A stretch of 64,000 nt of DNA from contig CM082578.2 in NCBI GenBank assembly GCA_040954595.2, forward strand, positions 15,050,998-15,114,997. The letters are read 5' to 3'. Below are positions 593 to 64,000 of the stretch, one piece after another. The stretch is from Balanoglossus misakiensis (taxonomy: Eukaryota > Animalia > Hemichordata). Numbering within the stretch: position 1 is the stretch's first letter; each line of letters begins with the position of its first letter. The notes under the pieces are model-generated. The model did not search any database. It was not told the DNA's origin and saw nothing but the letters and a program-made list of their open reading frames with translations. Position numbers and translations under genes: made by a program.

Positions 593-3500
593 TCAATGGT
601 GGGATTCGTATCTGGAAAGTTTTTCATGTAAAGCTCTATGATCAACTGGAATGCTATATCCACGGTATTGACTCACTCGTGATGATTTCTGACGTCTTGT
701 TCCGGTACTCCGTCGTGAAGTCTGTCTCTCGTTATTAAGCTCATACTCTTCCAATCTTTGGGTGAGGGCTAATTTCTGCTGGATGGCCATACGCAGGAGG
801 GAGTTGAGGGTCTTCCTCTCCTCTTCGGCCGAGGAGAGTTTCCGTTGCATCTCATCCAGTTGGGTGACGTAGTCATCACAGCGAGTTGCGAACATTGCCC
901 GCAGACTAGCGAAAGTGGCTGCGTCTTCTTTGAGGGCCTTGAGTTCATTGCGTAGTTTCATCATAGTTTCGGCCACGATGGTCTTCTCATTTCCATATTT
1001 GCTCTTGAGGTTGGCCAGTGCCACTTCGGCCGTGGTCTTGTTGGCCTTCAGGACCGTTCTCAGAGTTGTGATCTGATCACGTTTTGTCGTCAGCAGCGAC
1101 TTCAGCTTGACGACCTGAGCCTGCAGGTCCTCGTTCTCGGCCAAGCTGCCCCCGTCAACTCGGTGCTGTCTGGACGCTTCAACCGTATGTTCGATGGCGC
1201 GTTTCAGGTACTTCACCTGATCACGCATTGTAGCCAACATATTAAAGCACGTGGATGCATCGGCGGGGCCTCCACTACCCAGAAGGCCGTTCTGTTCCTC
1301 TTGTGTAACTTTTCCGTCGGCCGTGCCGTTGGTGGAAGCGTCTTCCAGCATTGCCTCGTCAATGTCCTTCGAGTTTCTGTCTGCATTCCTGCGTTCTTTT
1401 CTGCTCATGCTGCTGGCGTTGTTGCTCCTGCTAGGCCCGATTCCTCGCAACTTGCTGGCGATGTGCGTGTGGAATCCTTCCCTCCGACTCAAACGCGACG
1501 TCTTGAAGTGTTCCAGCATCACCTTGTTTGGCGCCTCTCCGTTCACTGTGCAAATGTGGTGGTACAGCTGGGCAAGATCCTCACTGATGCTGATCAACTC
1601 GTCCCGCATACAATTCAAATGTCCTTGACTTTCACCCATGATCTCGTTTCTTTCCTTGAGCTTCCTCTCCAGTTCTTTCACTGTAGTGTTCTGCTTCTTG
1701 CTGCTATCACTCAGGACACTCATCTCGGCTTGCAGATCGTTGTAGACTTTGGTTGGGATGTTCTGATGCTCATCATCAGATCTTTCTTGATACATGTTCA
1801 GCTCGGCTTGCTGCTTCTGCATCCTGGCAACGGCTGCAAGGAACCGTTTCTCGTAACGCGCAATGTCTTTCTTCAGTCTGGTGATTTCTCTGTCCTTGTC
1901 CTGTAGGTCCTCGTATTCCTCGTGCTCCTCACCCTCGCTGGCTGCCCCGTCTTCCTCGAACTCACTCAGAACCTTCTGGTCAACAACAGCTGACAGTCGG
2001 TTCACTCGCTCGCTCTGCTCTGAGAGGGCACCCTTTGTATTCTCAAGTTCCTTGTGGGACTCCAGCAGGTGTTTGGACAGTTCCGATTTTTCGCTCTTTA
2101 AGGCACTGAGCTGGGCTTCCAACCTCTGGACTTCGGTTGTGTGCAGCTCACTCAGGAGATCGGAAACTGTGGCCGGCGCGGGCTGGGGTGAATCCTCAGT
2201 GGGCATAGATGCACGGAACTCGTGTTCCATTCTTCGCAGGATCGGGTGATCGGGGGAGCCGCACTCCTCTCTGTCCAGCTGTAATCTATCAGTGCTGCTC
2301 TCCAGATCCTCATTCAGGGCCTCTAACTCAGACAACATTTTGCCATCGAGTTCTTTCTTCAGAGCATGTTTCTGCTCACGTTCATGTTCAAGGGCAACTA
2401 AAGCTTCCTCGATTTGTTTCTCAGCAATCTCCTTCAACTTGGCCAGGTCCTCGATCTGGGAATTCAGGTATTCTGTTTCTTCATTCATTCTTCTGATTTC
2501 GTGTTTCATGGCTTCAAACTCCACTTGGGAGGATTTCAAACCAGAGACCTGAAAGCAATATAAACCATGAATAGGTCAAATGTCACTAAATACATACATC
2601 ACCACTGTGTCAAAGAAATGCATCAATTGTCTTCAGAAAATGGTTGTGTATATTCAAAAAAGTTTAGAGCACGTCAAGTTTTGGAGCTCATATATTTTAC
2701 ATCATCAGTGCAAAACCATTTTTACCTGTTTTTGTAACTGTATATTTTCTTCTTCCAACTCACTGTAATCTTGCAAAAGTCTTGTTTCCCGGAACTTATA
2801 TTCCCGCAGTTCATCTTTGATCTGTTTCCTTTGACTTTCCAACCTTTCCGAGATATCATTCAATTCAGATATCCTGGTGTTGAGCCTCTCATTTTCTGAT
2901 CTAGTCCTATCAACTGATAGACGACATTGTTTTGTTTCATTTTCTAAGTCACTGATCCTGGATATAAAGTCAGCTTCTCTGGATGCAGTTTCCTGTAAGA
3001 GTGTCTCCTCATGGTTGACTTCATAGGCCGTGTGTTTCTTCTGATTTACTAGTTCCTGATCAAGCGCCTGAAATACCAAAGAGAAAAGCAATGGATTAAT
3101 GTACAAAACAAACTGTTGGTTGAAGTGTGAAATTTAGCCTACATCCCAATTTAAAGGGTAGCGCCAATAAATTCTGATTTATAACATGTTGACTGCACAT
3201 ATTCACCTTCCAATACACAGGAGCAGACGGAGTGAGAAATCTATGTGATAATAAATTGTTGGGCTTTGTACCAAACACCTCGTTATTCATTCATTCATTG
3301 GTCAGGGGAAAATGAGACTTCCATTTCAATTAGGTGTTCTGGGATTTCCATGGATATTACAAGAAATCAATTATACTAGGCTGACACATTCCGCCATGCA
3401 CCTTGATTTAAGGTGTAATAAGTGCGACTACATGCAAATATCCCTCTTTAAATCTACTATATGTAGTACACACTGTGTAATAGAATATTTGGTAAAAGTA

Positions 3501-10179: not shown

Positions 10180-10933
10180 AATTTGGTCTGCAGCAGCTGT
10201 ATTTTTTTTTATTGTTCTCTGTGGTGAATATTCTGTTTACATTTATACATGTGTATTTCATGGTGTCCAGAAAGTGTTATTGCAGTACATGGTGTACTTT
10301 GTTTTTCCCTTTTCAGAAATAAAATGATATATCAAAATAACCTTTCTCGTGAAACCTGTTGAAATGACTGTAATCTGAAAATGTGGATTAGCATTATTTG
10401 TGCCTATTCAGGGCCAAAGTTGGCAGCAGAAAGAAAAGGGCCAACAAAATGATTGTTATCGTACCCTCTATCTTTTGAACACGTTTTCAACCCTGGGGAA
10501 ATCACCAGGGTTGTGGCCTAGGTCGTGCGCCACCATGCGGCGACCCGTGAGGCCAAATATTCACGGATTTTCTACTCGAATGTGATTCCACTGCTGACCT
10601 GACCTGTGACTGACAAAATGGCGTGCACGTGTGGTTTCGCAATTACCGGTGGCGTATAGAAGAAAACGTGTTGGTAGGTTCCCCTCCTGGGTAAGATTCC
10701 TGACTGAAGGCCTTAGTCCTGTCTGTCAGTCAGTCCGTTTAATCTAAGCCATTTGGACACCACAACCTCTAACACGATCTGTACTTCGTTAGGTGGGGGG
10801 GGGGGGGGGGGGGGGTTACAATGTGTACGAGCACATGTGCTGCAGTCAAAGTCTTCACCAGTGTCACACATGTTTAAGTAATAATGTTAATGATTTTCCA
10901 TTTCAGGTAGTTATAGCACCAGCCAAAACCACA

Positions 10934-12520
10934 ATGCTGAGAGGCAGTTCCATTGTTGCCATCAGAAGGCTACAGACGTCAATATTAGCACGTCACCGGA
11001 AGAAAATCAAGCCATCATCTGAAGTGTTGCAGACATTACCAGATATCTATGATATTTATGACAGCAGCCATGTAATACACAAACCTGGCAATGTTTTCAA
11101 GTACAGCTACCTGTCAAAGCCAGTTACAACTGTGTCACATATGCAGAGGCGTGGCCTCTGTGTTCAGAAACCAGGGTTTGACCTACCCAATGACGATCTC
11201 CTGGATGACACAGTTGCAAGAGGAGTCACAGGAGATCCTGAGCAGTCAGCAAGTGAAGCTAGCAATAAGGAGAAAAACTTGCAAGATGCAAGGCAGCTTG
11301 TCGATATGTGGCGCAAGTCGGGAAAGTTTGTGCCCGAGGAGATGACTGAAATGGAGCTGGCGGAATTCTACAAACTTGACACTAAAAGCAGTCGCAAGAA
11401 ATACTTGAAATTCCTGGCACGTCGAGAAATCATAAGGAGGACGGAGAAAATGAACAGGTTGCGTAAAGCGGAGGAGAGGGCGAAGTTGCAGAGTGATGAT
11501 AATTATGGCAAGTTTGAAAAAAACACCATTCTCCTGTTCATGCGCAACACCACCATGGCCCAAAGTGGTATGTGGAACATGGCCCGTGGCATGAAATTTG
11601 GACCGAAACTTGTGATTGATCACAGCTATGAAAGCGAGATGAACAGGAGGGAAATTATAGCACTTGGCAAACAACTGACGGAAGTTCTTGGTGCCATGAA
11701 AACTGCGTGGGAACCGTTTCATATGTACTGGACAAATGTCGAAGCTGGTGGAAAGATGGAGGCTGAAATGCGGCGGGTGTTTGGGGATTACTTGGACCGA
11801 ATGCTCATCGACATCACAGAAGAATCCTTCTTAGATATTTTCCCGAGAGAGCAGCTTGTGTATTTGAGCGCCGACTCTCCCAATGAGCTGACGCACTACG
11901 ACTCAGACAAGGTGTACATAATCGGCGGAATGGTGGACCTGTCAATCAAGCCACGACTGTCACTTGCCAAGGCAAAGCGGTACAACATTGCGAGCGCCCG
12001 TCTGCCTCTGGATCACTACATGAAGTGGGGCCCGGGAGGTGGCAAGAACTTGACCGTTGATCAGATGGTGAGAATAATGTTGGAGATGAAGACATCCGGG
12101 GACTGGCAGCAAGCGCTGAAGCACGTACCAATAAGGAAAATTGAAGGCATGTATGAACAGACATCCGCTGCTGGCTCAGATCGCAAACCGTGGTGCGGTA
12201 CATCACCTGGGTCGGAAGGGCAATCTCAGCAGTCCCTTACCGGCAAATTTTCTTTCAGTCGAGCTTCGGGTACAGAGAAGGGGAACAAGAGAGGTAAAAA
12301 GACTGAACAGGACCAACATGGTCTGTGGTATGGAAGGACTCCATACCCTGAAGAAGAACCCTACTTCACAGCTAGAAGAAAGGGTTTGACTGAGAACAAC
12401 ACAATACCACCAAACTTTGCAGAAAAATATTCTAAAATAGTTGAGAGGAATAAAAAGCAACCTAGTTATAAACAAAGAAGACAGATAGACAAAAACTACC
12501 TCAAAGATTTGTATGAGTAA
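10934..12520 (+). CDS. TRMT10C: tRNA methyltransferase 10C / mitochondrial RNase P protein 1, single coding exon
   Basis: Arg-rich N-terminal presequence, KKYLKFL helix and TRM10 SPOUT motifs (LVYLSADSPN, KVYIIGGMVD, ARLPLDHY, KNLTVDQMVRIML). An acceptor tttcag ends at 10906, just upstream of the ATG. A probable 5'UTR exon with AAAATGGCG lies at ~10615-10673. AATAAA at ~12768. Confidence 0.93.
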   Translation: MLRGSSIVAIRRLQTSILARHRKKIKPSSEVLQTLPDIYDIYDSSHVIHKPGNVFKYSYLSKPVTTVSHMQRRGLCVQKPGFDLPNDDLLDDTVARGVTGDPEQSASEASNKEKNLQDARQLVDMWRKSGKFVPEEMTEMELAEFYKLDTKSSRKKYLKFLARREIIRRTEKMNRLRKAEERAKLQSDDNYGKFEKNTILLFMRNTTMAQSGMWNMARGMKFGPKLVIDHSYESEMNRREIIALGKQLTEVLGAMKTAWEPFHMYWTNVEAGGKMEAEMRRVFGDYLDRMLIDITEESFLDIFPREQLVYLSADSPNELTHYDSDKVYIIGGMVDLSIKPRLSLAKAKRYNIASARLPLDHYMKWGPGGGKNLTVDQMVRIMLEMKTSGDWQQALKHVPIRKIEGMYEQTSAAGSDRKPWCGTSPGSEGQSQQSLTGKFSFSRASGTEKGNKRGKKTEQDQHGLWYGRTPYPEEEPYFTARRKGLTENNTIPPNFAEKYSKIVERNKKQPSYKQRRQIDKNYLKDLYE

Positions 12521-27428: not shown

Positions 27429-30400
27429 ATGTCTAATATCATACATGTCGCACCCGCTCCGTATGACGAAAAAGATGGGTTTTCGAACGATACCATTGCA
27501 CTGCCGCCACCGACGTACACCCGAGAGCTAACGAACGCCCCAGAGAAGCCCAAGAAAGAAACTTTCAGCGATGTCATTCAGCAGTTTTCGGACAACACCA
27601 CGGCCCACGGTATTCCCAGAATCGTTAATGCAAAGTATATGTGGTCAAAATTTCTATGGTTCATAGTTGTTGGAGGGAGTACCGGCGTCTTCTTGTGGCA
27701 GAGTACCTTACTGGTGAAGGAATTCTTCAGTTGGCCGGTAGAGGTGTCTATAGACGTCTACAGCAAAACGGATGTAGACTTCCCGGCGGTCACCGTGTGC
27801 AACATGAATCGACTCCGCCGGTCAGAAATGGAGGGCACGCGATTTGCAGGCATTCTAGACATTGACGGCGGAGCAAACGAAACCATCTGGGATTACGATG
27901 GCTTTGAGTGGTATTTTTACTCCGACATCTATTCCGATCTTAGTGCGACCAGTGAACCATCTACAGAAGCACCGATTGGTCGTCGGAGGCGACGCTCGGT
28001 CAACAACAAGGATTATCCAGAGCCATCCCTTGACGAGTTCCATGCTGACGAAGACGGTGCACAGCCCCCTCGCAAGTCCAACGACCGCAGCCAACGCCGC
28101 GAGCAATTTAAGCAAAGAAAGGCGCCTGGGCATCATAAAGGGCAGATGCACCCCTCCGAAGGAAATCTAGACTCCCCGGTCGACTACCCAGACCACGAAG
28201 ACTATCCCACACAGGGCCAAGGCACGAACCAAAGGAAACATCACCCTGTAGACCGCAAGAAATACAACGAAGCAATCCGCAAACTAATGACGCCTGAATT
28301 AGAAGCGCGCAAGCAGAAGATGGAAGCAAGGAAGAAGGAGAGACATGAGCACTTTGAAAAGGTGAAAGCAAAATTGGATCAACTGAAGGCAGAAGGAAAG
28401 TTGCCGAATCATCTCCGAAGAAGCAAGAGGGCCGGCGGATCATCATCATCATCATCTTCTTCTATGATGTCGTCATCTTCTATCGGTGGTGGTGGCGGTA
28501 GCAGCAGTTTCGGCAACTCTTTAGACTACAGTTGGTTTGATGATTTTGGTTGGGACTTTGACACGAATGAATTAGACTTCGAATATTACGACTACGGCTG
28601 GGGCGACATAGCAAACGAGAACGACTGGCAAGGATTCTACGATAACTCCAAAATGGAGGATTTCAGCGACTTGGCCGATGTCGCCAACCCGACCGATGAT
28701 GAGCTGCGCGGGATAGGACACCAGGCAGAGGACTTCATATTACAATGTACATTCGATAAAAGACCGTGTAATTATACGTAAGTGTTAAGATTTAGGCAAC
28801 CCGGACTGCCCTTTTCATTTTTAACCCCAAGCCGACATTTCACATACAGGTACATAGCCTGAATGTTTGTAAAGGCTTTGATCTGTGATCGACCAGTATT
28901 CAAGATGTACCATCTGCATCCCATAATACTATAGCAACACCGTCGATCCTGTGATCGCGTGAATGGGATTGTGGTGAAGACGTGATACATGTGTATGTAT
29001 AGATATGTGATGGTTCTTTCTCAGTATTAACATATCTAAATTTAAAAATAACAATATAATAGTGTGGATCATGAGAAAATTCGACCCAAGGTCTAGTTCC
29101 CTACATGTTTCGAATGGATGCGCTGAGTTTACGATTGAAACAGCAACGTATTTCGTGTCATTGGTCTTTTTATATAGATTTTTCAAACAATGGCAGAACA
29201 AGAATTATGGTAACTGCTACACATTCAACCACGGACACAACGAACCAGTGAGACAAACAAGCAAGTCTGGATCCCAATACGGTAAATGAATTTAATCGGC
29301 GTCTGTTCAAAATGATTCTAGCTTTGGTTCTCATTTCGTAGCTTTGGCTCAAGGGAATGACTCTGTGTACATGCAAAGCTGATGTGAAAGTGAAAACCCG
29401 ACTGTCGTGAACTCATGAGAAATAAAAGAAACTTGCCTATTGGACAATGCATTGGAAACAGATTCCACACACTTGTTTCTCAACAGGTTACTAACTTTGA
29501 TTTGTTTTATTCCCAGGATTGCACCTGACGCTATTTATAGAGCAACCTGAATACGTGGGGTTATTTTCACAGGAGAGTGGAGTAAGAATGACGGTGTCAC
29601 CACAAGGTGTGGCTCCATTCCCCGAGGATTTGGGAATCACAGCTGGTCCCGGTCTGTCTACATCTGTTGGTATTCGCCAGGTAAGAACGAGGAAGAGAGA
29701 GGGAGGGAGGGAGAGTGTGTGTGTGTGTGTGTGTGACGGACAGACAGAGACATGCAGACAAACAGAAACAGAGAGAGACAGACAGCAAATGGGAGAGGAG
29801 GAAGTGAGGGAAACAAGAGAGAACAGAGACATAGTCAGACAACAGCGTGAAACTTACAAATGTATCTTACCGTATAATATAATGTTTTGCAGTATAACTA
29901 TGTCCGACAACCCCACCCTTACGGAAACTGCACAACTGGGGAGGAAGTTTACATGGTTAACACGGACTATGATTACTCTGTTGTCCTCTGCAAGAAAGAA
30001 TGCCTGCAGAAGAATCTGATCGAGAGATGTGGTTGCGTCAGCGATATTCTCATAGACCACGATAAATGTAGCTTTCTGAACGTCACACAACGTAAGTGTA
30101 GAATAACATTTTGGAAGTCTTTTGGATTTTTTTATATTACAGATATAAATTGATATTTGCATAGTGTTTATATACGTTCATTATTGCTATACTTTTCCTA
30201 TCATTTTCCCAAAACAAACTCACATTCTATTTTATGAATATAACAGAACGATGTCGTCAAGTTGTTGAAGCGCTGTATGAAGATGATGAATTAAATTGTA
30301 CAAAGCCTTGCAAGAACCCATGCTCGTACGTAAGCGTATTTGCATATTTTCCATGGGTTATAGCTCATGAAAACTGTCAATAGATGACAAATTTTCGACT

Positions 30401-31516: not shown

Positions 31517-32837
31517 TCGAACACGGACATGAAATGTCACCCACAGTAGGCGCGCCAGAAGTGTTCGGAAGTGAATGCGTGAATGTGTGAAATTAACATT
31601 CTGCAGTTGTGCACAATTTGGCACTGATTGAGTGTGGCCATCAAATAATCATTTCATGATTTTTTCCTTATACCTGGAGGGTTTTAGTAATACGAATTTA
31701 CTCTTTTTATGACCTTGCAACGAGAATTATTTCTTCCAGTCCCCCTAAATATGACAGGAAGCGGAAATGCGCAATATTTCCCAATCGATATATGGTCACG
31801 TATGGGGCAGTACTAGTATGTTTAAATATAGGGAACGGTCTTTACTTAGCGTTGTTGTGGTGTGGGTACAAATATTTTATTGCTAATATTATATACACAT
31901 TCTTGGTAGGTCATTGAGAAAGGTAACCATTAGCGTGGCTGGTAAAACTTAAAGAATGTTGCATTTACTTGAGTGCAAATTTAGATGATAAATAACGCGG
32001 CATTATGACACTGTATGGGAAGTTCTTAGGAATGGATTTTCACACAAGCTTGAAGTGTTTTTTAACTTTATCAATTTTATAAATGAAATGCGTTTACATT
32101 CGCACACAGAGTTGTATCAAAAACATGAATATAGGATTTTTTTTTCCGAAAAGAGCTTCTTTTCATGCGTAGCTCTACACGAGTGCTGGTTAGCATCGTT
32201 TAATGTTGTCCTAGGGTTTTGCCGTTTGCTCTTCCAATAAATGATTAAATCACAGAAATGATTTTTTTTGTATTTTCTGTTGTTCTTCATTTTAAACATT
32301 AATATGTGATACCATTGCAAACCCTTCCGTGGGGTAAGAAAACGCAGGTTGAGTAAGAAACGCCCTCTAACGGCCGGATTCTATCTCTTATAAGGAAATC
32401 TACCGCCACGGCACCCTTTAAAAACTGAACTATCAAGTAGCTTATTTAACTCCCACTATTATTTAGTTCATTGATCTGGGGATTATTAAGAACTGTACAT
32501 TAATCTTTCCTTCAATAACACAGCAGCGACGGCTTTTCGTTTCCCATACAGCGAATTTTACCACGGTCATATTTCTCACGGTAAATGTAATACGTCTTTG
32601 TCACTTGTATGATGTATACGTATCAGCTTAGTACGGTTCAAACGGTTCAAAGAACGTTGACATTTTGCATCTTTCGTTACTTTGCCAATATCCATGCGAT
32701 GTCTACGACACCTGGGTGTCTAGCCTGCATCGTGTAGATATCTATGCGTTTGTCTCCAACGGAGAAAAAATACTAAAAACATGAGGTTACACGAGAACCC
32801 ATACAATTACCTACTTATACCATGAAAGAGGGCGTAA

Positions 32838-33351
32838 ATTTGAAAAATATCGTGGTCTAGTTGTGCAGTGACGTCAGACCGATTAATATACATCGCACCT
32901 TATACACCTGGTCATTTAGGGATGTAAATTCTGACACAATAGAATGGCATAATGCAGTTATCTCATTGGCTAACAGACTAGGTGCACATCGATTCACCAC
33001 GTGCACGTCGTACGATGCATGGGCATGTCACCGTGTTTTAGTCACGCCACCAGTACGCGGATATTTCCGATACAGAGTATTCAAGCGAATTGGAACAGTT
33101 TTCGCTCTCAGTTTGAAAAGCCCGGTACCACTGGATGACAGAGAAGATGTTAGACGGCAAAACAGGCACGTGAAAGTTTTCAGGCTCCTGCGAACAGTCA
33201 CAATTGACAGAAAAACCTGGATCTCGCGTACCACAAAATATACGCAAGTCTACCACGCGGAGCATGAGAGTGTGGGGTGTATGGGGAAGAGTTACACGCC
33301 ATTCTGGCAAGGTAAGTTTCACTTATTTTTACACATTTTCCTAGCGCGAAA
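32838..33351 (+). repeat. Dispersed ~510-bp repeat, copy A (paralog at 58741..59285)
   Basis: Long collinear matches with copy B, e.g. ccgatacagagtattcaagcgaattggaaca, gacagagaagatgttagacggcaaaacaggc, gtgaaagttttcaggctcctgcgaacagt and gcaaggtaagtttca. Confidence 0.88.
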
Positions 33352-52200: not shown

Positions 52201-54077
52201 TAGTTATCTAGCTCGGTATTCAAACTCTCGTGCACTCTATGTACGCTCAGTATGCTAAAAATAACCAATTGGATATCCAGATAAGTTGTCGGGACAATAG
52301 TCCGGCATTACTAATAAACTGACCCACCTGTTGAAGTGTCGTCCCCCTTGTCCAGCGACTGCAGTTCAGTGTCTGTACTGCCGTGGGCTATATCAATATT
52401 TTCGGGTGAAGAACTTTTGGTATCATTACATGGCGCCTGGATGTTGTCGTAATCTTGGTGCTCGTTCATAGTGAAGTGTAGTGCACTCGGAGATTCTAAA
52501 CTTCTCTTTCGCAGTTGTTGCTGCAGTTGATGTTGTTCTTGTTGTTGATGGTGGTGGTGGTGGGGGTGTTGGTGTTGGTGGTTATGCTGCTGTCTGTAAT
52601 GCTGCTGCTGCTGCTGCAGTAATCGTTGTTGTGCAGGTTGTGAGTTGTGGTGGTGGTGGTGGTTGTGAAGAGGTCGCTGTTGAGACTCGTGCTGCTGATT
52701 CGGATACGAAGACGCTTGGTAGTGTTGCTGCGTTGGGTAATGGTGGAGGTGGTTCTGTTGCTGGTATTGTGAGGCAAACTGCTGTTGTTGTTGTTCTGGA
52801 TGATGATGGTCGTGATGTGGTTGTCTTTGTTGTTGGTTCTGTTGTTGTTGTTGTGGGTTCTGCTGAAGGGTCTGTGTCACCAAGTTACTGGTTATTGTGG
52901 CCCAGGAGTTCAACAGAGCTTGAGAGGCTCCGGGCAAGTTCAGTTGTTGAGTTATGAAGTGCTGTAAGTTCTGAATGGTCGTAGCCGCCGATTGGGCACT
53001 GTTGGTGGGAGCAGAATTTGGGGGATTCGGAGAAGGATAACCGACAGTCGACTGGCCGCCATTCTCTTGTGCGCATGAGCTGCTCATCTGGTTCGCGCCA
53101 CACGAGCATCCACAGGAGTGAGACTGGTTGTGATTCGGGACCGGTGACGGAAATCGGAAATGTTGCGAATGGTTGGGAGTGCCGCAGCTGCCACCGTTGC
53201 AATCGGGTGGGGAGATCAGGGGCGGAACGGGAGACGCCTTAGAGAACTCTCGCGGTATCTGGTGAGGGAGTGAACTTGGACGAGGGGCGGAATTGTTCCT
53301 CTGACTCAGGGACTTGATGAAATCGGCCACTGACGGGGTGAAATGCTGTTGCGGAACGCTTTGCTCTGAATCAGGCGACGCCGGCTGTTGTTTATTGACT
53401 TGAAAAGCTGCCGGGTTCGAAGTGCACCGGGGCTCCGCCGTGGTTTGTTCCCCCGACGGCGAGTCTGAGTGAATTACGGAGTCGGAATCGTCGAGCATGT
53501 CGTCGCTTGAATCGTCTTGCTGGATTCCAGCGAAGTTGAAACTGCACGGGCGATTCCAAGGCGGTGTCATGGGCTCGGCTTTGATCCCGTTGTGCAGGAT
53601 ATTTTCGAATCTGGACCTCGTCTTATAAGACTGCAAATGGTTGAGCAGCGAATGGACAAAGTCCCCGACGTTGTTTTGACACTGTTTCTCTTGCTGTACC
53701 CAATGACTTAGCTCGCTCACCCACTGTTCTGCCTCAAAATACATCCTAGGGTCATTCAGGAGCCCCCCTGGATGTACTTGGTGGACTTTGTGGAGATAAT
53801 CAATCGTCATCTCTAATATTTCAGCCTTGTCCAGTTTCTTAGCAGCGTAGGCACTCATGGAGTAAGCCCTGCATTCCGGAACCAAGGTTTTCAAAGTGTT
53901 CAAACAATTATTGATTCTATCTCGTCGCCGCTTCTCGATGTTTTTGTGCGTGTCAAGGTAGTTTCGTGACTTCTTTCTGCCGGCCACGTCTTCGCCCTTG
54001 TCCTCCGGCGCCTGTGCGCTCAGCCGCCTCTTCGTGCCTTGCCGTGGTCCCTTCACTTTGTTGTCTTCTGGCTCCAT
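49229..54077 (-). CDS. Hairy/E(spl)-group bHLH(-Orange) transcription factor (HELT/DEC/clockwork-orange-like) with Q/H-rich region
   Basis: The main exon 52328..54077 contains the bHLH HKNIEKRRRDRINNCLNTLKTLVPEC...KLDKAEILEMTIDYL, a degenerate Orange-like helix pair (VSELSHWV...SLLNHLQ) and poly-Q/H tracts. It either stops at 52311 or splices (G|GTGGGT, phase 1) to putative exons 50978..51073 and 49229..49356, which join in frame. The last two exons are lower confidence. Confidence 0.85.
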
Positions 54078-57800: not shown

Positions 57801-58740
57801 CGACAAGACATGACACTGATTTTCCTGTTCAACAGTCGAACCCTGATACAGTTAAGATGACTTTTCGAACGACACACAGTAATCGTCGAGGTTCTATAAT
57901 GGCTGAGCTTGACGCAGTAGTGACACTATGTGTGTTAACCCATTCCCTCCTCAAATTGCATGTCCCTCTGTTTTGTGGCGTTAACATCCATGCTTTTAGT
58001 GGTATTCTACCACTTAAAATAGTTATAAACTGCAAGGCAATGAAACGTTGATGTAATCGTTTGTCGAACATAATGGCAATTCCAAAAGAACGTAACCAAC
58101 ACCGTAGAATTCATGGACATTTCAAAATCATAACTTTAGGGATGACATGATAAAACGACTCAAATACTATTGACCCGTGGTAATTATTTGACCGATGACC
58201 ATTGGATAAAAAAAATCATGATTGAAGGTTACAAAAAAATGATGCATCGTCGCAACATTTCATGAGAAAATCCACGCCGCTGACAATCTGTGTTTAATGT
58301 TTAGCCAGGACGGTGCTGACGTACGAGGGCCTGTATTATTAGATAACAATGACGTAGCAGAAAACACTGACGTGAATAAGGGCGTAAATAAATGTAAATG
58401 TAAATATCAACAAAGAGTGCAGTTACGGCCTTCTTTCTATAGGAAAGTTGTTTTGAAATTCTGCTCGAGTAGCCCCAATATTTGATCGTAAAAACCTCGT
58501 TGAAGAAAACAGGTACATCTGGTCCCATCTCACCAACACCACTGGTTGCGCCAGCGTAGCGCAGCCATCGGCGGGAACGGGGCAGGCAATCGTTCGAACC
58601 GAATATTTTCCCTGTGCGTCGGCTGATGGCGCAATTTAACCACCATAGGTAAATGGGTTCGAACGGGTCTACAATTCTAAACCTCGCCGATTTAGCTGGC
58701 ATGTTGTGAACCGCGTGGGACCGAACACGAAAAAATGTAC

Positions 58741-59285
58741 ATTTGAAAAATATCATGGTCAAGTAGTGCAGTGCTGTCAGACTCATCGGTATACACCGCA
58801 CCTTTATACACCTGGTGTCATTCGGGATGGAAATTCTGACACAATAAAATGGCATAATGCAGCCATTTCATTGGCTAACAGACTGACTGTACTGTACTGG
58901 TCCAGGTGCACATCGATTTGCCACGTGAACGTTGTACGATGCATGCGCATATCACTGTGTTTCAGCCACGCCACCAATATGGACGCATTCTCGGATGTCT
59001 CCGATACAGAGTATTCAAGCGAATTGGAACATTTTTTGCTCTAAGTTTGAAAACCCGGTACCACTGGCCGACAGAGAAGATGTTAGACGGCAAAACAGGC
59101 TCGTGAAAGTTTTCAGGCTCCTGCGAACAGTGCACAATTGACGGAAAAACCTGGATTTCGCGTAGCACAAAATACATGCAAGTCTGCCAGGCGAGGAATG
59201 TCAGTGTGGGATGCATGAGGAAGAAATACACGCCATTCTAGCAAGGTAAGTTTCAGTTATTTTCTCAAATTTTCCGAGCGCGAAA
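58741..59285 (+). repeat. Dispersed ~540-bp repeat, copy B (paralog at 32838..33351)
   Basis: Collinear similarity with copy A in the same orientation, with small indels. Confidence 0.88.
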
Positions 59286-59570
59286 TTTAACTCACCGTGA
59301 CTTGAGCTGGAAAGTGACGTAAAACTAAAACTATTACCCTTTGCTATATCAAGCGGGAAACTGATGAAGGGAAACAGATTTACAGAAAACAGGAAACATG
59401 TTTTTAGAAATTGATAACAATATGGAGGAAATGTGTTTTATGTCATAGACGTGTACATGTAACTCGAATCCTTGGTTAATTGATCTTGAGGAAATAACAC
59501 AAGGAAATAACAAACCTACATGTTTTATCGACAACGTTCATCGTACACTGCGTTCGTTCGAGTAAAAAAC

Positions 59571-60568
59571 ATGTCCGTGAAAACTGCGAGGAAATTTGCG
59601 ATTTTTCTGTCCTACTGCTTGGTTTGTGGCTACGACTTGTATGTGGCGGGAACGTGCATCCCGGCCACGAATGTCACGTGTGCTTCGAAGTGCCACTGCG
59701 ATTATTGCAACAACGGAGAGCCTTACAAGACGCTGGCCTGCCGTTGTCCTGCCAGGGAGCTCAGCGCCGTGCCGAGAGACGTGCCCAAAAACACAAGCTA
59801 TTTGAGCCTGTTCAAAAACAGGATAGGAAAACTGAGCGCTTCCGAGTTTTCAGGTCTTGGGAATCTTATACAACTGGATCTGGGTTACAACTTTCTTGAC
59901 AGTAACGGCATCGACGGAAATGCATTTCTTGGTCTGGAAAATCTGAAGCATCTGAGTCTGAAGTTTAACCGAGCTCTCAACCGGATATCTAGTGAGTGGT
60001 TCCGTCCTCTGAAAAGTCTCTGGAAAGTTGATTTTGAAAGAGCAAATGTGGAGTCGCTGTCAGAAGATACATTCAGGTTTAACTTAAAATTAGAATACGT
60101 AATCCTTCGTGGAAACCAGATCAAAAACATCGAACCGTCACTCTTCCGAAATTTGCCGTCACTGAAGAAAGTACTCCTGCAAATTAATCAGTTGAAGTCA
60201 CTCCCTCCGGAAATGTTCAACGGTTCTATGGAAACGGATGAACTGAATGTCAATAGTAATAAACTCATGACAATATCCCCTGAAGCTGGGCTTCAGGACA
60301 TGGAGAACTTGAAGAAACTTTCAGTGTATCAGAATCCCTTGGACTGCGGCTGTGATCTTGTTTGGTTTCGCCAGTGGATTGACACTGTTGACGTCATCGT
60401 CAAGGTTCACAACACGACGTGTGCATCGGGAGGAAATATCATGAAGTTCAATCCCGATGACTTGCAGTGTGAGTTTCCCGTCGTCATGGTGACCGTTCTG
60501 ACCATCGCCGGGTTTTTGGCTCTTTGCACATTGATAACAATCATAGTTCACAACAGATGGAGGATAAG
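59571..60568 (+). CDS. LRR receptor cassette 1 (signal peptide, LRRNT, ~8 LRR, LRRCT, TM; Toll-like ectodomain)
   Basis: MSVKTARKFAIFLSYCLVC...CIPATNVTCASKCHCDYC, LRRs, NPLDCGCDLVWFRQW...C, TM and HNRWRIR. There is an AG|GTATAT donor at 60569; if unspliced the ORF stops at 60593. Confidence 0.9.
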
Positions 60569-60587
60569 GTATATATTATTTTACAAA

Positions 60588-60590
<3 letters not shown>

Positions 60591-60643
<53 letters not shown>
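60591..60643. repeat. (GAT)n microsatellite
   Basis: ~17 uninterrupted GAT units. Confidence 0.95.
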
Positions 60644-60831
60644 TAAGTCTTTTATAATTGTGATGGGATACGTGTCAGAAATTAGAGATTTAAACTGTAA
60701 GCATTACATGCAGGATAGGGCAATGAGAAGTTTGTGAAATCTCTGCAAAATATCTCGTTCGACGAAAACAAAATGGACGTCAAGAATCAGGTTTACTTTC
60801 GCCGCCTAGCAAATATGCAGGGAAAGATGAG

Positions 60832-60841
60832 GGGAATTCCC
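60832..60841. promoter_or_regulatory. Canonical palindromic NF-kB/Rel site upstream of LRR cassette 2
   Basis: GGGAATTCCC matches GGGRNWYYCC and lies ~240 bp upstream of ATG 61077. Confidence 0.55.
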
Positions 60842-61076
60842 GTTTAACAACAGATCAATTTACGGTATTACAAAGTTTTAAACGTTCGAAACTCAACACC
60901 GACGACCTTTGACCTGCAGTTTCGAAGTTGAGGTGGTATGAAGCCTATGACGAGCGCCACCAATTTTCCTGTACATATGAATAGTCACGTGAGCAGATCA
61001 AAAATGCAAATTTATGTTCGGTAGTTTGGTTCTGAAACTCTCCTGGTTGACATCGAACAACTCATTACCTATTGCA

Positions 61077-62074
61077 ATGGCAATCGTTCCGAAGCACCTT
61101 ATTATTGTCCTATTCGTGGTTATCCTGTGTTGTGAGTTGGGTGTGTGCGTCGACTGTGTACCAGCTACCAACATCTCCATCCCGTCGCAATGCACATGTG
61201 AGTACTGCACGAAAGGAAAAACAAGTACGTGGTTAACTTGTAACTGTAATTGTGGAAGACACCAAACTAAGATTGTACCTAAAGGACTACCACCACACAC
61301 TACCCACCTTTTCGTTCAAAACTGTGGTATCGGCAAACTCGACAACCATGAGTTTGCGGGTCTCAGTAAACTGGTAGAACTGAATCTGAGTAATAACAAA
61401 TTGGATGCTCAACAAATCGAGCCACATGCATTCGAAGGTTTGGACAATCTTAGAAAGCTCATTCTGAAGTTTAACCGAGCACTAAAAAATATTCCAGCTG
61501 AATGGTTCCGTCCTTTGAAGAATCTGTGGAAAATTGATCTTGAGAAGGCGAGCGTGGAGACACTGTCAGAAGACGCCTTTCGGCACAACTTAAAATTGCA
61601 GTACATAGTCCTGAAAAACAACCAGATACAAAATGTAAAACCGGCCTTATTCAGAGATTTGCCTTCGCTGAGTAAAGTTCTCCTGCAAATAAACCAGTTA
61701 GAATCGCTGCCTCCTAGTATGCTGAATGGGTCCACGAGTGTAGATGAAGTAATTGTGTATAACAACAAGCTTATGACAATCACCAGTGAAGTCGGGCTTC
61801 AAGACATGGAGAACTTAAAGAAACTTGCAGTGTATCAGAATCCCTTGGACTGCGGCTGTGATCTTGTCTGGTTTCGCCAGTGGATTGACACTGTTGACGT
61901 CATCGCCAAGGTTCACAACACGACGTGTGCATCGGGAGAAAATATCATGAAGTTCAATCCCGATGACTTGCAGTGTGAGTTTCCCGTCGTCATGGTAATT
62001 GTTCTGGCCTTGGCAGCGTTGATCATTCTCAGCACTATAATTACACTTCTTGTTGCCAACAGGTGGCGGCTGAG
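61077..62074 (+). CDS. LRR receptor cassette 2 (signal peptide, LRRNT, ~8 LRR, LRRCT, TM; Toll-like ectodomain)
   Basis: MAIVPKHLIIVLFVVILCC...CVPATNISIPSQCTCEYC, LRRs, NPLDCGCDLVWFRQW, TM and ANRWRLR. There is a strong AG|GTAGGT donor at 62075; if unspliced the ORF stops at once (TAG 62076-62078). Confidence 0.9.
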
Positions 62075-63389
62075 GTAGGTCCTGTTTCAGATGAACTGCT
62101 ATCAATGTCAACACCATCAACTTCCTCAAACTTGACATTCACTCGTCAATAACATCTGTTCCACTGCTTTTAGCTCTTAATGATAATTTCATTGTTGGGG
62201 TTTATTTCGAACAAAGTACAAATTCCGTCCAAAGTTTGACATGTGCCAACGTACCATGTGTGAATAGTCATACACAAATGAGCACAAGGACGAAACGAAA
62301 CTCCTGCGCTTTGGCGCTATGCACCACAGAGGTGTGATCACCAAAAAGTTTAAGTTATCTCCCTTCGTCAGAACAGATACCTTCCTGAAAAATACTGAAC
62401 GAAAACAAGACCGAATAATGCGAAATACGTCACAACTTAAAGTTGTTTTTGCATTGGCCGACATCATGGCAACTTAACTATGTAAACATGAAATGACATG
62501 ATCTAGTCTTGTCTTGTCTTAGGTCAGGTATGTACCAGATTTCCAGCATAACAACTAAAACATTTACCGTCGTCACTGAAGAATCCTTATTTTGCTATGT
62601 ATAGACATTAACTGGTTACGACCGTACCATAACATTTCCTCATCGATGCGTGCATAAAATATCAGTTTAGGTACCTTTGTAGGGTTGGGGAAAAGGTTGC
62701 TAGATTTAAAACTACATTTACTCATTCTTGCAATATAGAACAAACTATGGCCTGACACTCTTCCGCCAGACTGTTTGTTCCTTCCTGGTATGATAGTCTC
62801 GGTACAGTTTGTTGTTCTCAAACCCTGGCATATTTCGTGCATTTTGTCCAAACAACATTGAAGTCGACACGAAAGTAGCTCGAACACAATTAGGTGTATT
62901 GAAGTCATGGGAAAATGTGTTAATCTCTAGGGTCAGGAAATCCGCTGTTTTCTTTCTTTCGGGAGATCGGAAAACAGGCATGACAAGAGAAAGACTCGCT
63001 CTTGTCACCTGACATTTTAAATACGAGTCGTCACGTTCAAATGTTTTGAGCATTGTCGCCTCATGACAGACAGATGTCAAAATCTTTGTTTGTGAAGAGG
63101 CTGTTGAGGTAGAGGTTGCGGCGCATATGTGTAACCATTGCAAATATTTTAGATAAGAACGTCTGATTAATTACAACTTGATCCATATGGATTGGACTTA
63201 GTACTAATATTCAGTCAAAAGATTTGCATGCACCAGCTGGAGTATTGCGCCCTCGACGGGCTTGTTGAGCACCGCCTCCTATTCTGTATCTAATACTAGA
63301 AATCACATGACCACTACAACTTTTGCGTGGTTTGCCCAGACCGATTTATAGGAAGTTAGTGTACAGTTAGACTTTTGTCAGCTGCAGCG

Positions 63390-64000
63390 ATGGTGATCAA
63401 AACATCTGCTTTAACCCTGCTTTGCCTCTTAGTCTTGGGTTACACGCGTTACGCGAATGCCGGCAGTTGTGTTCCAGCGACGAACGTGTCTTGCCCAAAT
63501 GTGTGTATTTGCGAGTACTGCGACATGCCGTGGCCGTTTAAAAGGCTGAGGGTTGACTGTGCATCAAGAAAGCTGAACGCTGTACCAGACAATATACCGC
63601 TGGAAACGGAATCTTTGAACCTGGCCCAAAATGGTATCGGCCGACTTATAAAACCTGGCGATATCTCGTATTTGAAGAGACTCTACCGACTGGACCTGAG
63701 CTACAATCTTTTGGACAGCAACGCAATGTATCCCGGGGTTTTTGAAGGCCTCGAAAATCTGAATAATCTTATTTTGAAGTTTAACCGAGCTCTGAAGACG
63801 ATCCCTAACCAGTGGTTCCGAACTTTGAAAAATCTCTGGAAAGTTGATCTCGAAAGAGCACACGTAGTAACGATTGAAGAAGACGCCTTTCGATTTAATT
63901 TGAAATTACGATTCATTGTTCTTCGCGACAATCAGATAAAGCACATCGCACCTTCGCTTTTTCGGGGACTTCCGTCACTAGAGAAAGTTTTGTTGCAAAC
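63390..64000 (+). CDS. LRR receptor cassette 3 (partial, runs off window end)
   Basis: Not in the ORF track because it has no stop in the window. It is open from ATG 63390: MVIKTSALTLLCLLVLGYTRYANAGSCVPATNVSCPNVCICEYC...LILKFNRALKTIPNQWFRTLKNLWKVDLERA...LFRGLPSLEKVLLQ, paralogous to cassettes 1 and 2. Confidence 0.9.
   Translation, partial: MVIKTSALTLLCLLVLGYTRYANAGSCVPATNVSCPNVCICEYCDMPWPFKRLRVDCASRKLNAVPDNIPLETESLNLAQNGIGRLIKPGDISYLKRLYRLDLSYNLLDSNAMYPGVFEGLENLNNLILKFNRALKTIPNQWFRTLKNLWKVDLERAHVVTIEEDAFRFNLKLRFIVLRDNQIKHIAPSLFRGLPSLEKVLLQ

What the first reader, a model, noticed from the sequence alone, without database searches (positions are those of the whole stretch)
59571..64000. Tandem LRR-TM cassettes ending at the same phase-2 splice donor: candidate protocadherin-style variable-exon Toll-like receptor locus
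Seen: at least three paralogous same-strand cassettes start 1.5-2.3 kb apart. The two complete ones encode signal peptide, LRRNT, LRRs, LRRCT and TM in one exon. Both end at the identical position of the juxtamembrane motif (NRWRIR / NRWRLR) with a GT donor splitting the last Arg codon (AG|GTATAT at 60569, AG|GTAGGT at 62075). Read-through hits a stop within 0-8 codons, and I see no TIR-coding sequence between cassettes. Known: a basic/aromatic RWxxRY-type motif after the TM is typical of Toll-like receptors just before the TIR domain. Clustered protocadherin and UGT1A loci use arrays of promoter-bearing variable first exons spliced to common 3' exons. Inference: each cassette is an alternative first exon spliced to one shared constant cytoplasmic (probably TIR) exon downstream of the window, diversifying an innate receptor by promoter choice.
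Basis: partly seen in the sequence, partly recalled or inferred. Interest (0 to 1): 0.85.

Follow-up and report, generated by a model that had tools for sequence, protein, structure and literature searches.

The report
Acorn-worm tailless Toll-receptor duplicates
Three side-by-side genes, likely from an acorn worm, encode short Toll-like immune sensors; two have intact outer parts but no signalling tail beside them and likely work as tailless decoys or helpers, while splicing onto the third gene's predicted tail remains possible but untested.

Summary
In detail: three same-strand, single-exon LRR cassettes; c1 and c2 stop 7 and 0 codons after AG|GT at RWRxR; no TIR in the window. They belong to an acorn-worm short-TLR cluster. 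The c3 orthologue in Ptychodera flava (75%) continues into its own TIR; the c1 orthologue (65%) is annotated TIR-less. In three acorn worms, 0 of 16 paralogue pairs share an identical tail: each gene has its own TIR, near-identical within a species, likely by gene conversion. AG|GTA is what Arg(AGG)-Tyr(TAY) codons of the family motif spell, and the codons after it (YILF, *VLF) still resemble the family's coding tail (p about 0.02 each). Best reading (0.57): old, maintained TIR-less paralogues, likely decoys or co-receptors. Splicing of c1/c2 onto c3's TIR stays open (0.33 in two forms): c2 and the c1 orthologue stop exactly at the site, and two database models splice there. No genome or RNA data were available. 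The scan noted a similar, unchecked 13-cassette array in a feather star. A single constant exon for the whole cluster is not supported.

The parts
59121..59570 (+). Likely promoter region of c1, with 9 GGAAA half-sites (motif recalled and chosen after looking)
   Evidence: 0 of 394 other 450-bp windows reach 9, mean 1.48; its 5' part overlaps a dispersed repeat
59571..60593 (+). c1: single-exon ORF, 340 aa; predicted signal peptide, LRRNT, 8 LRR, LRRCT, TM (about 60477-60551), RWRIR-YILFYKF-stop; no TIR; orthologue of P. flava XP_070557402 (65%)
60281..60490 (+). 210-bp tract 96% identical to c2 61787-61996 (last LRR and LRRCT), likely gene conversion
   Evidence: 8 mismatches; pS 0.09 inside, 0.72 in the 207 codons upstream
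60567..60575 (+). AG|GTATAT: Arg-Tyr codon junction; candidate phase-2 donor (GT at 60569)
60570..60593 (+). Relic of the family's cytoplasmic tail, YILFYKF-stop
60591..60643 (+). (TGA)17.7 microsatellite that begins with the c1 stop codon
60831..60841 (.). Palindromic NF-kB-type site GGGGAATTCCC, about 240 bp before the c2 ATG (consensus recalled)
   Evidence: 3 of the 8 window matches lie here; the window total is not above shuffles (19 of 100 reach 8)
61077..62078 (+). c2: single-exon ORF, 333 aa; same architecture, ends RWRLR-stop; no TIR; no orthologue among the P. flava models seen
61787..61996 (+). Partner of the c1 conversion tract
62073..62081 (+). AG|GTAGGT: Arg codon plus TAG in place of the family's Tyr; candidate phase-2 donor (GT at 62075), followed by codons V-L-F
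63390..64000 (+). c3: 5' part of a third ORF, orthologue (75% over 203 aa) of the second half of P. flava XP_070557404, which continues through TM into its own TIR; c3's Arg-Tyr site is predicted about 385 bases past the window end

Best explanation
c1 and c2 are intact duplicates of the outer and membrane part of a short Toll-like receptor gene, likely from an acorn worm, that have no TIR tail beside them and likely act as membrane-anchored decoys or co-receptors, while c3 is predicted to be a complete receptor with its own TIR. Shown: intact ORFs under purifying selection, no TIR in the window, orthology of c1 to a TIR-less and of c3 to a TIR-bearing Ptychodera model, private but near-identical tails among relatives. 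Inferred: the family gene is one exon from signal peptide to TIR; a deletion a few codons after RWRIR-YxLF removed the TIR once, before c1 and c2 split and before the split from P. flava; AG|GT is the Arg(AGG)-Tyr(TAY) junction and c2's stop is a Tyr-to-TAG change; each copy has its own promoter; gene conversion keeps LRRCT and TIR alike while the LRR heads diverge. The tailless proteins would bind microbial ligands or pair with full receptors and dampen or redirect signalling (untested).
For: (1) Tyr follows the RWRxR motif in 13 of 13 TIR-type relatives scored and in 48 of 80 motif rows of more distant hits; AGG is 38 of 183 Arg codons in the window's long ORFs. (2) After the GT, c1 reads YILF and c2 *VLF, against YIMF, YVIF, YVIF, YFIF in Glandiceps. 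Family-profile scores at codons 2-4 are reached by 39 and 27 of 1834 GTA sites and by 2 and 2 of 93 donor-like sites. (3) c1 and c2 match at 4 of 4 second, 1 of 4 first and 1 of 4 third codon positions in codons 2-5 after the Arg; 22 of 4278 unrelated AGGTA pairs match at all four second positions. (4) 0 of 16 within-species pairs of full-length relatives share a tail; tails are 66-98% identical, ectodomains 37-89%. (5) In three pairs with unlike TMs the first 12 tail residues are also unlike (5, 3, 5 of 12); identity rises to 10-12 of 12 from block 2 or 3. (6) c1, c2 and P. flava XP_070557402 form one TIR-less clade (96/95); c3 pairs with the TIR-bearing half of XP_070557404 (99/97). (7) pN 0.30 against pS 0.72 over 207 unconverted codons, no frame break. 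(8) No database protein joins a c1-type head to a TIR. (9) Most sea-urchin TLRs and mussel TLRs are single-exon (PMC3367398 section 9; PMC10279657 passage).
Against: c2 and XP_070557402 both stop exactly after the Arg. A real donor predicts this (67 of 93 donor-like sites give an in-frame stop at that codon); my reading needs two Tyr-to-stop changes, or one and a reversion. Two unnamed distant proteins also end there (P0167, P0171). Two database models break at this very codon: Glandiceps XP_077977599 leaves there (RWKI-S) and Ptychodera XP_070557406 enters there (DDLQ-YRLY). Neither spacer has AATAAA or ATTAAA on the + strand, and the 483 bp after the c1 stop have none of 11 hexamer variants. 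The codon tests were chosen after looking and rest on 3-4 codons. It is not clear why a dispensable tail would keep a coding signature over saturated silent divergence. No genomic DNA of any TIR-bearing relative was seen, so the single-exon structure is inferred. Expression and function are untested.
Confidence: 0.57

Rival explanations
1. One reading: the family has a true phase-2 intron at the Arg before Tyr, and c1, c2 and c3 are alternative promoter-bearing first exons that splice onto the one TIR exon behind c3, with further whole genes downstream.
For: Stops exactly at the site in c2 and in XP_070557402; 67 of 93 donor-like sites would give that stop. The GTs rank first in their ORFs. 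Models XP_077977599 and XP_070557406 use the site as donor and as acceptor. No canonical poly(A) signal in the spacers. Separate promoter-like motifs before c1 and c2. Intact heads without any TIR relic. An unchecked scan note reports such an array in a feather star (a lead only).
Against: Post-GT codons resemble the family's coding tail and show a second-position pattern. Donor scores are ordinary once AGG-TA is given. No two relatives share a tail, and the constant part starts 12-24 residues late. RefSeq leaves the c1 orthologue TIR-less. No conserved upstream motif between the three upstream regions (blastn best E 0.32).
Confidence: 0.25
2. Recruited splice sites: the family is intronless, but tandem duplication copied the AGGT of the Arg-Tyr codons, so the copy in c1 or c2 now serves as donor and the AG|G inside c3's (or a later gene's) open frame as acceptor, giving the tailless heads a borrowed TIR.
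For: Reconciles the coding-like post-GT codons with c2's move toward the donor consensus (7/9). Intron gain by tandem duplication of AGGT is a described mechanism (PMC3443670 passages). XP_070557406 enters at this AG in frame.
Against: It needs skipping of one or two whole cassettes and use of an acceptor inside a translated exon. c1's site is only 6/9. 34 of 93 AGGTA sites are as strong as c2's. No chimeric protein turned up.
Confidence: 0.08
3. c1 and c2 are recently disabled copies on the way to pseudogenes, as is common in tandem TLR arrays.
For: Several database models of the cluster look broken (XP_070557311 leaves the TIR frame; XP_070557406 lacks the TM; XP_077977599 lacks the linker). 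67 of 253 sea-urchin TLRs are pseudogenes (PMC3367398 table passage). The TIR-less branches are longer (0.23, 0.62, 0.82 against 0.13, 0.18).
Against: Both frames are intact across saturated silent divergence, pN is well below pS, the TIR-less state is shared with P. flava, and no TIR relic is left in the spacers.
Confidence: 0.1

Closest known systems
Short TLRs of acorn worms and echinoderms (database models: P. flava XP_070557310/311/402/404/406; Glandiceps talaboti XP_077977596/598/599/600/604/605; Saccoglossus XP_002733943, XP_006825331, XP_002741806; sea-urchin 'short' group in PMC3367398, section 9 and passages read)
   Same: Short LRR ectodomain capped by LRRNT and LRRCT, TM, RWRxRY motif, several copies per species, on one chromosome in Ptychodera and in Glandiceps; 50-75% identity to the Ptychodera models
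   Different: c1 and c2 have no TIR beside them; 8 counted LRR motifs against nine in the sea-urchin group; orthology to the sea-urchin group was not tested
Mammalian TLR1/TLR6 gene conversion (PMC2077338, abstract read)
   Same: Tandem paralogues whose last LRRs, C-cap and TIR are kept alike while the N-terminal LRRs diverge
   Different: Here the c1/c2 tract stops at the start of the TM, and two members lack the TIR
TIR-less TLR-like genes of Ciona robusta and vertebrate decoy TLRs (PMC12816324, passages read)
   Same: LRR proteins without a complete TIR, proposed to help recognition without signalling
   Different: The Ciona genes lie on different chromosomes and are not close paralogues of the full TLRs; the vertebrate decoys named there lack the TM; c1 and c2 are anchored, clustered paralogues
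Variable-first-exon clusters UGT1A, GCNT2, clustered protocadherins (PMC1885805, passages read)
   Same: Tandem, same-strand, equal-sized large exons from the signal peptide onward, in one reading frame, each probably with its own promoter
   Different: No shared constant exon is seen in relatives; no conserved upstream motif; the donor is explained by codons; splicing is not shown
Nogo receptor, VLR and GPIb-alpha type LRR folds (Foldseek)
   Same: Capped solenoid of similar size (5o0l E 5e-14; TM-score to query up to 0.67 among Nogo receptor chains)
   Different: At most 27% identity among listed matches; a generic LRR likeness that says nothing on the ligand

Membership tests
Toll-like receptor (single cysteine cluster, short type) | LRR ectodomain capped by LRRNT and LRRCT | tested here: met
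   Pfam LRRNT only weak (E 0.004, c3); caps read from the cysteine pattern and the alignment
Toll-like receptor (single cysteine cluster, short type) | Signal peptide and single TM helix | tested here: met
   hydropathy and predicted helices 4-22 and 303-327; no dedicated signal-peptide predictor was run
Toll-like receptor (single cysteine cluster, short type) | Cytoplasmic TIR domain in the same protein (c1, c2) | tested here: not met
   none in the reading frames or spacers; a spliced TIR beyond the window cannot be excluded
Toll-like receptor (single cysteine cluster, short type) | Cytoplasmic TIR domain (c3) | not testable with these tools
   beyond the window; the orthologue has PF01582 at E 3e-18
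Toll-like receptor (single cysteine cluster, short type) | Descent from TIR-bearing TLR genes | tested here: met
   nested with Ptychodera TLR models (99/98)
Sea-urchin 'short' TLR group | TIR sequence groups with the short clade; nine LRRs | not tested
   no sea-urchin short TLR sequences in hand; the supplement could not be read; 8 motifs counted
Variable-first-exon cluster (UGT1A/protocadherin type) | Tandem paralogous large exons in one orientation and reading frame | tested here: met
Variable-first-exon cluster (UGT1A/protocadherin type) | Functional donor at the same phase at the end of each exon | tested here: inconclusive
   GT present, forced by codons and ordinary given AGGTA; coding-like sequence follows; stops at the site fit a donor
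Variable-first-exon cluster (UGT1A/protocadherin type) | One shared constant region, identical in all products | tested here: not met
   tested in relatives only: 0 of 16 pairs identical, boundary displaced; not testable in this genome
Variable-first-exon cluster (UGT1A/protocadherin type) | A promoter with a conserved motif before each variable exon | tested here: inconclusive
   no shared upstream sequence; different promoter-like motifs before c1 and c2, none before c3
Variable-first-exon cluster (UGT1A/protocadherin type) | Transcripts joining each variable exon to the constant exon | not testable with these tools
   no run was listed for read laying

The most novel reading that the evidence does not exclude
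c1 and c2 are alternative first exons that splice at AG|GT onto the TIR that follows c3, through either an ancestral intron or splice sites born from the duplicated Arg-Tyr AGGT. One acorn-worm locus would then make at least three Toll-like receptors with different heads and one tail by promoter choice, a protocadherin-like design I did not find described for TLRs (searches).
Probability: 0.33. Interest if true: 0.8.

Novelty: new member of a known kind. Interest (0 to 1): 0.42.

Why it matters
On the best reading it is a modest result: acorn worms keep a branch of tailless, membrane-anchored TLR paralogues inside a short-TLR cluster, candidates for decoy or co-receptor control of innate signalling, and their full receptors reach 'many heads, one tail' by keeping private TIR copies alike. 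It also warns that the TLR juxtamembrane motif Arg-Tyr spells AG|GTA by itself, so truncated TLR copies will mimic variable exons. If the splicing rival is true, it would be a TLR locus diversified by promoter choice in an invertebrate deuterostome, and about 1 kb of further DNA plus one RT-PCR would show it.

Tried and rejected
Whole genome: none is held, so nothing beyond 64000 was seen. Sequencing runs for 59200-64000: no RNA holder listed; this is no evidence either way, and no reads were laid. A TIR relic that I thought I saw by eye after the c1 microsatellite: rejected, tail HMM best E 0.57 over 18 frames. Two readings of the 29-residue linker in the fused model XP_070557404 (match to DNA before c3; shifted TM frame): both rejected, 34 of 194 and 93 of 300 null cases score as high. 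A 5' UTR donor at 59246: it lies in a dispersed repeat and is present in the other copy too, so it was not used. Metagenome scan for genomic DNA of relatives: 2 loci of 129 pattern matches, both unrelated prokaryote-type TIR genes. Conserved promoter motif among the three upstream regions: none. Tree of the last LRR and LRRCT: too short to resolve, 9 of 14 forks open. Earlier findings near the place, by sequence and in relatives: nothing. A PNAS 2017 paper on deuterostome TLR pathways (recalled) is not held. Supplements of PMC3367398 could not be read; they may hold gene structures of the short TLRs. No complex prediction was run, since binding is not claimed.
Full report
Observation. The window end holds three same-strand ORFs: c1 59571-60593, c2 61077-62078 and c3 from 63390, cut by the window end. 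c1 and c2 encode a hydrophobic N-terminus, a cysteine cap, 8 LRR motifs at the same positions, an LRRCT and a TM helix. The AlphaFold model of c1 has mean pLDDT 90 and resembles Nogo-receptor and VLR-sized solenoids, a generic likeness. The GT dinucleotides at 60569 and 62075 split the last Arg codon in phase 2, and read-through stops after 7 and 0 codons. No TIR-like sequence is detectable in the window by tblastn (best E 1.3) or in the spacers by a profile of 13 tails (best E 0.57).

Relatives. No genome is held and no run was listed, so the case rests on proteins. The closest are five Ptychodera flava models on one 47.3-Mb contig. A search with the LRRCT-to-TIR part added six Glandiceps models on one 32.3-Mb contig, four from Saccoglossus and one from the crinoid Anneissia. 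The source is therefore likely an acorn worm close to Ptychodera. In a tree of 20 ectodomains cut before the last LRR, c3 pairs with the second half of XP_070557404 (99/97; 75% over 203 aa), which runs on through the TM and RWRIRYRLY into a TIR (E 3e-18). c1 pairs with XP_070557402 (91/88; 65%), which ends at WRIR. c1, c2 and that model form a clade (96/95) with no TIR in any member. These database models are automatic, and several look broken or fused.

Is there a constant exon? I compared the tails after the RWRxR motif for 11 full-length models (3 Ptychodera, 5 Glandiceps, 3 Saccoglossus); P0003, P0142 and P0143 were left out because their tails are broken. 0 of 16 within-species pairs are identical; tails are 66-98% alike, ectodomains 37-89%. 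In the three pairs with unlike TMs, the first 12 tail residues match at 5, 3 and 5 positions, and identity rises to 10-12 of 12 only from the second or third block; in the P0002/P0023 pair the first block is identical and the second matches at 5 of 12. So the constant part does not begin at the proposed junction. Near-identical private TIRs behind divergent heads fit gene conversion, as described for TLR1/TLR6 (PMC2077338, abstract). The window shows conversion-like exchange directly: 210 bp with 8 mismatches between c1 and c2 over the last LRR and LRRCT, with pS 0.09 against 0.72 upstream.

Is the GT a donor? Tyr follows the motif in 13 of 13 relatives scored and in 48 of 80 rows from 77 of 151 more distant proteins. 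Arg as AGG followed by TAY spells AG|GTA, five of nine consensus positions (consensus recalled). Given AGGTA, 70 of 93 window sites score as well as c1 and 34 of 93 as well as c2; that set may include real donors. The codons after the GT read YILF in c1 and *VLF in c2, against YIMF, YVIF, YVIF, YFIF and YGFF in Glandiceps, YGIF in three of four Saccoglossus models and YRLY or YKLY in Ptychodera. Such scores are reached by 39 and 27 of 1834 GTA sites and by 13 and 8 of 536, or 2 and 2 of 93, donor-like sites; over codons 2-6 c1 weakens to 97 of 1834. Between c1 and c2 these codons match at 4 of 4 second positions but 1 of 4 first and 1 of 4 third, the same pattern as the TM codons (22, 15, 13 of 26); 22 of 4278 unrelated pairs match at all four. 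This says the sequence past the GT evolved as protein code. The tests are post hoc and short.

Evidence the other way. c2 and XP_070557402 both stop exactly after the Arg, which 67 of 93 donor-like sites would produce. Two unnamed distant proteins end at the same residue and one two residues later (P0167, P0171, P0150); these could also be cut records. Glandiceps XP_077977599 leaves the family frame at this codon and Ptychodera XP_070557406 enters at it. An AGG-TAY junction in a broken intronless gene offers both an AG and a GT, but a real intron explains both as well. Neither spacer has AATAAA or ATTAAA on the + strand. An unchecked scan note describes 13 such cassettes in a feather star; I could not test it, and it raised my odds for splicing somewhat.

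Function. c1 and c2 are intact over saturated silent divergence with pN 0.30 and pS 0.72, so the heads have long been under purifying selection, though the TIR-less branches are longer than those of the c3 pair. A GGAAA cluster before c1 and a palindromic NF-kB-type site before c2 (motifs recalled, chosen after looking) suggest separate, possibly inducible promoters; this fits both main readings. On the best reading (0.57) the proteins are anchored LRR sensors without a signalling tail that would compete for ligand or pair with full receptors. That step is inference from general TLR biology and from TIR-less TLR-like genes in Ciona (PMC12816324, passages). Rivals: true variable exons onto c3's TIR exon (0.25), recruited AGGT sites after tandem duplication (0.08; PMC3443670, passages), decaying copies (0.10).

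Comparison with the known. Sea urchins have a short TLR group with nine LRRs, mostly single-exon TLR genes, tandem arrays and 26% pseudogenes (PMC3367398, section 9 part 1 and passages; supplements not readable). Orthology to that group was not tested. UGT1A-type clusters are defined by a shared constant region and separate splicing of each variable exon (PMC1885805, passages): the layout matches, the shared region fails in relatives, and splicing could not be tested. Eight literature searches (listings only, except the papers named) gave no description of this acorn-worm cluster or of a variable-exon TLR; the library lacks most subscription papers.

Verdict. A real locus; most likely a short-TLR tandem cluster with two maintained TIR-less members, a new member of a known kind. 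Interest 0.42, carried largely by the one-in-three chance that the splicing model is right and by how cheaply it can be settled.

Noticed in passing
window 58737-59285 and 32834-33351: A dispersed repeat of about 550 bp (83% identical copies) sits 290 bp before c1; both copies carry a CAAG|GTAAGT donor-like site.
   Followed up: partly
window 60591-60643: A perfect (TGA)17.7 microsatellite starts with the c1 stop codon and ends at a GTAAGT donor-like site (60643).
   Followed up: partly
P0140/P0141, P0136/P0137, P0002/P0023 (database proteins): Acorn-worm short TLR pairs with 38-59% identical ectodomains have 85-95% identical tails, in three genera: many heads on near-identical private TIRs.
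   Followed up: yes
P0150, P0167, P0171 (unnamed proteins): Other TLR-like LRR-TM proteins end at, or two residues after, the same juxtamembrane Arg; either a recurrent truncation point or a widespread intron position.
   Followed up: partly
window 593-2509 (-): 638-aa single ORF matching Bicaudal-D (PF09730 positions 126-717) without introns over that stretch.
   Followed up: no
window 10835-12520 (+): 561-aa single ORF with a tRNA m1G methyltransferase domain (PF01746), likely TRMT10-type.
   Followed up: no
window 27429-28781 (+): 450-aa exon of an amiloride-sensitive channel (PF00858) with a long insert holding an RRRRRS motif and Ser/Gly runs.
   Followed up: no
window 52311-54077 (-): 588-aa single-ORF bHLH protein (PF00010) with a Gln/His-rich tail, HES-like by eye but without a terminal WRPW.
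   Followed up: no
window 62500-62535 (+): A short (CTTGT)n run ends in an acceptor-like AG five bases before an 8/9 donor-like site (GT at 62528) in the c2-c3 spacer.
   Followed up: no
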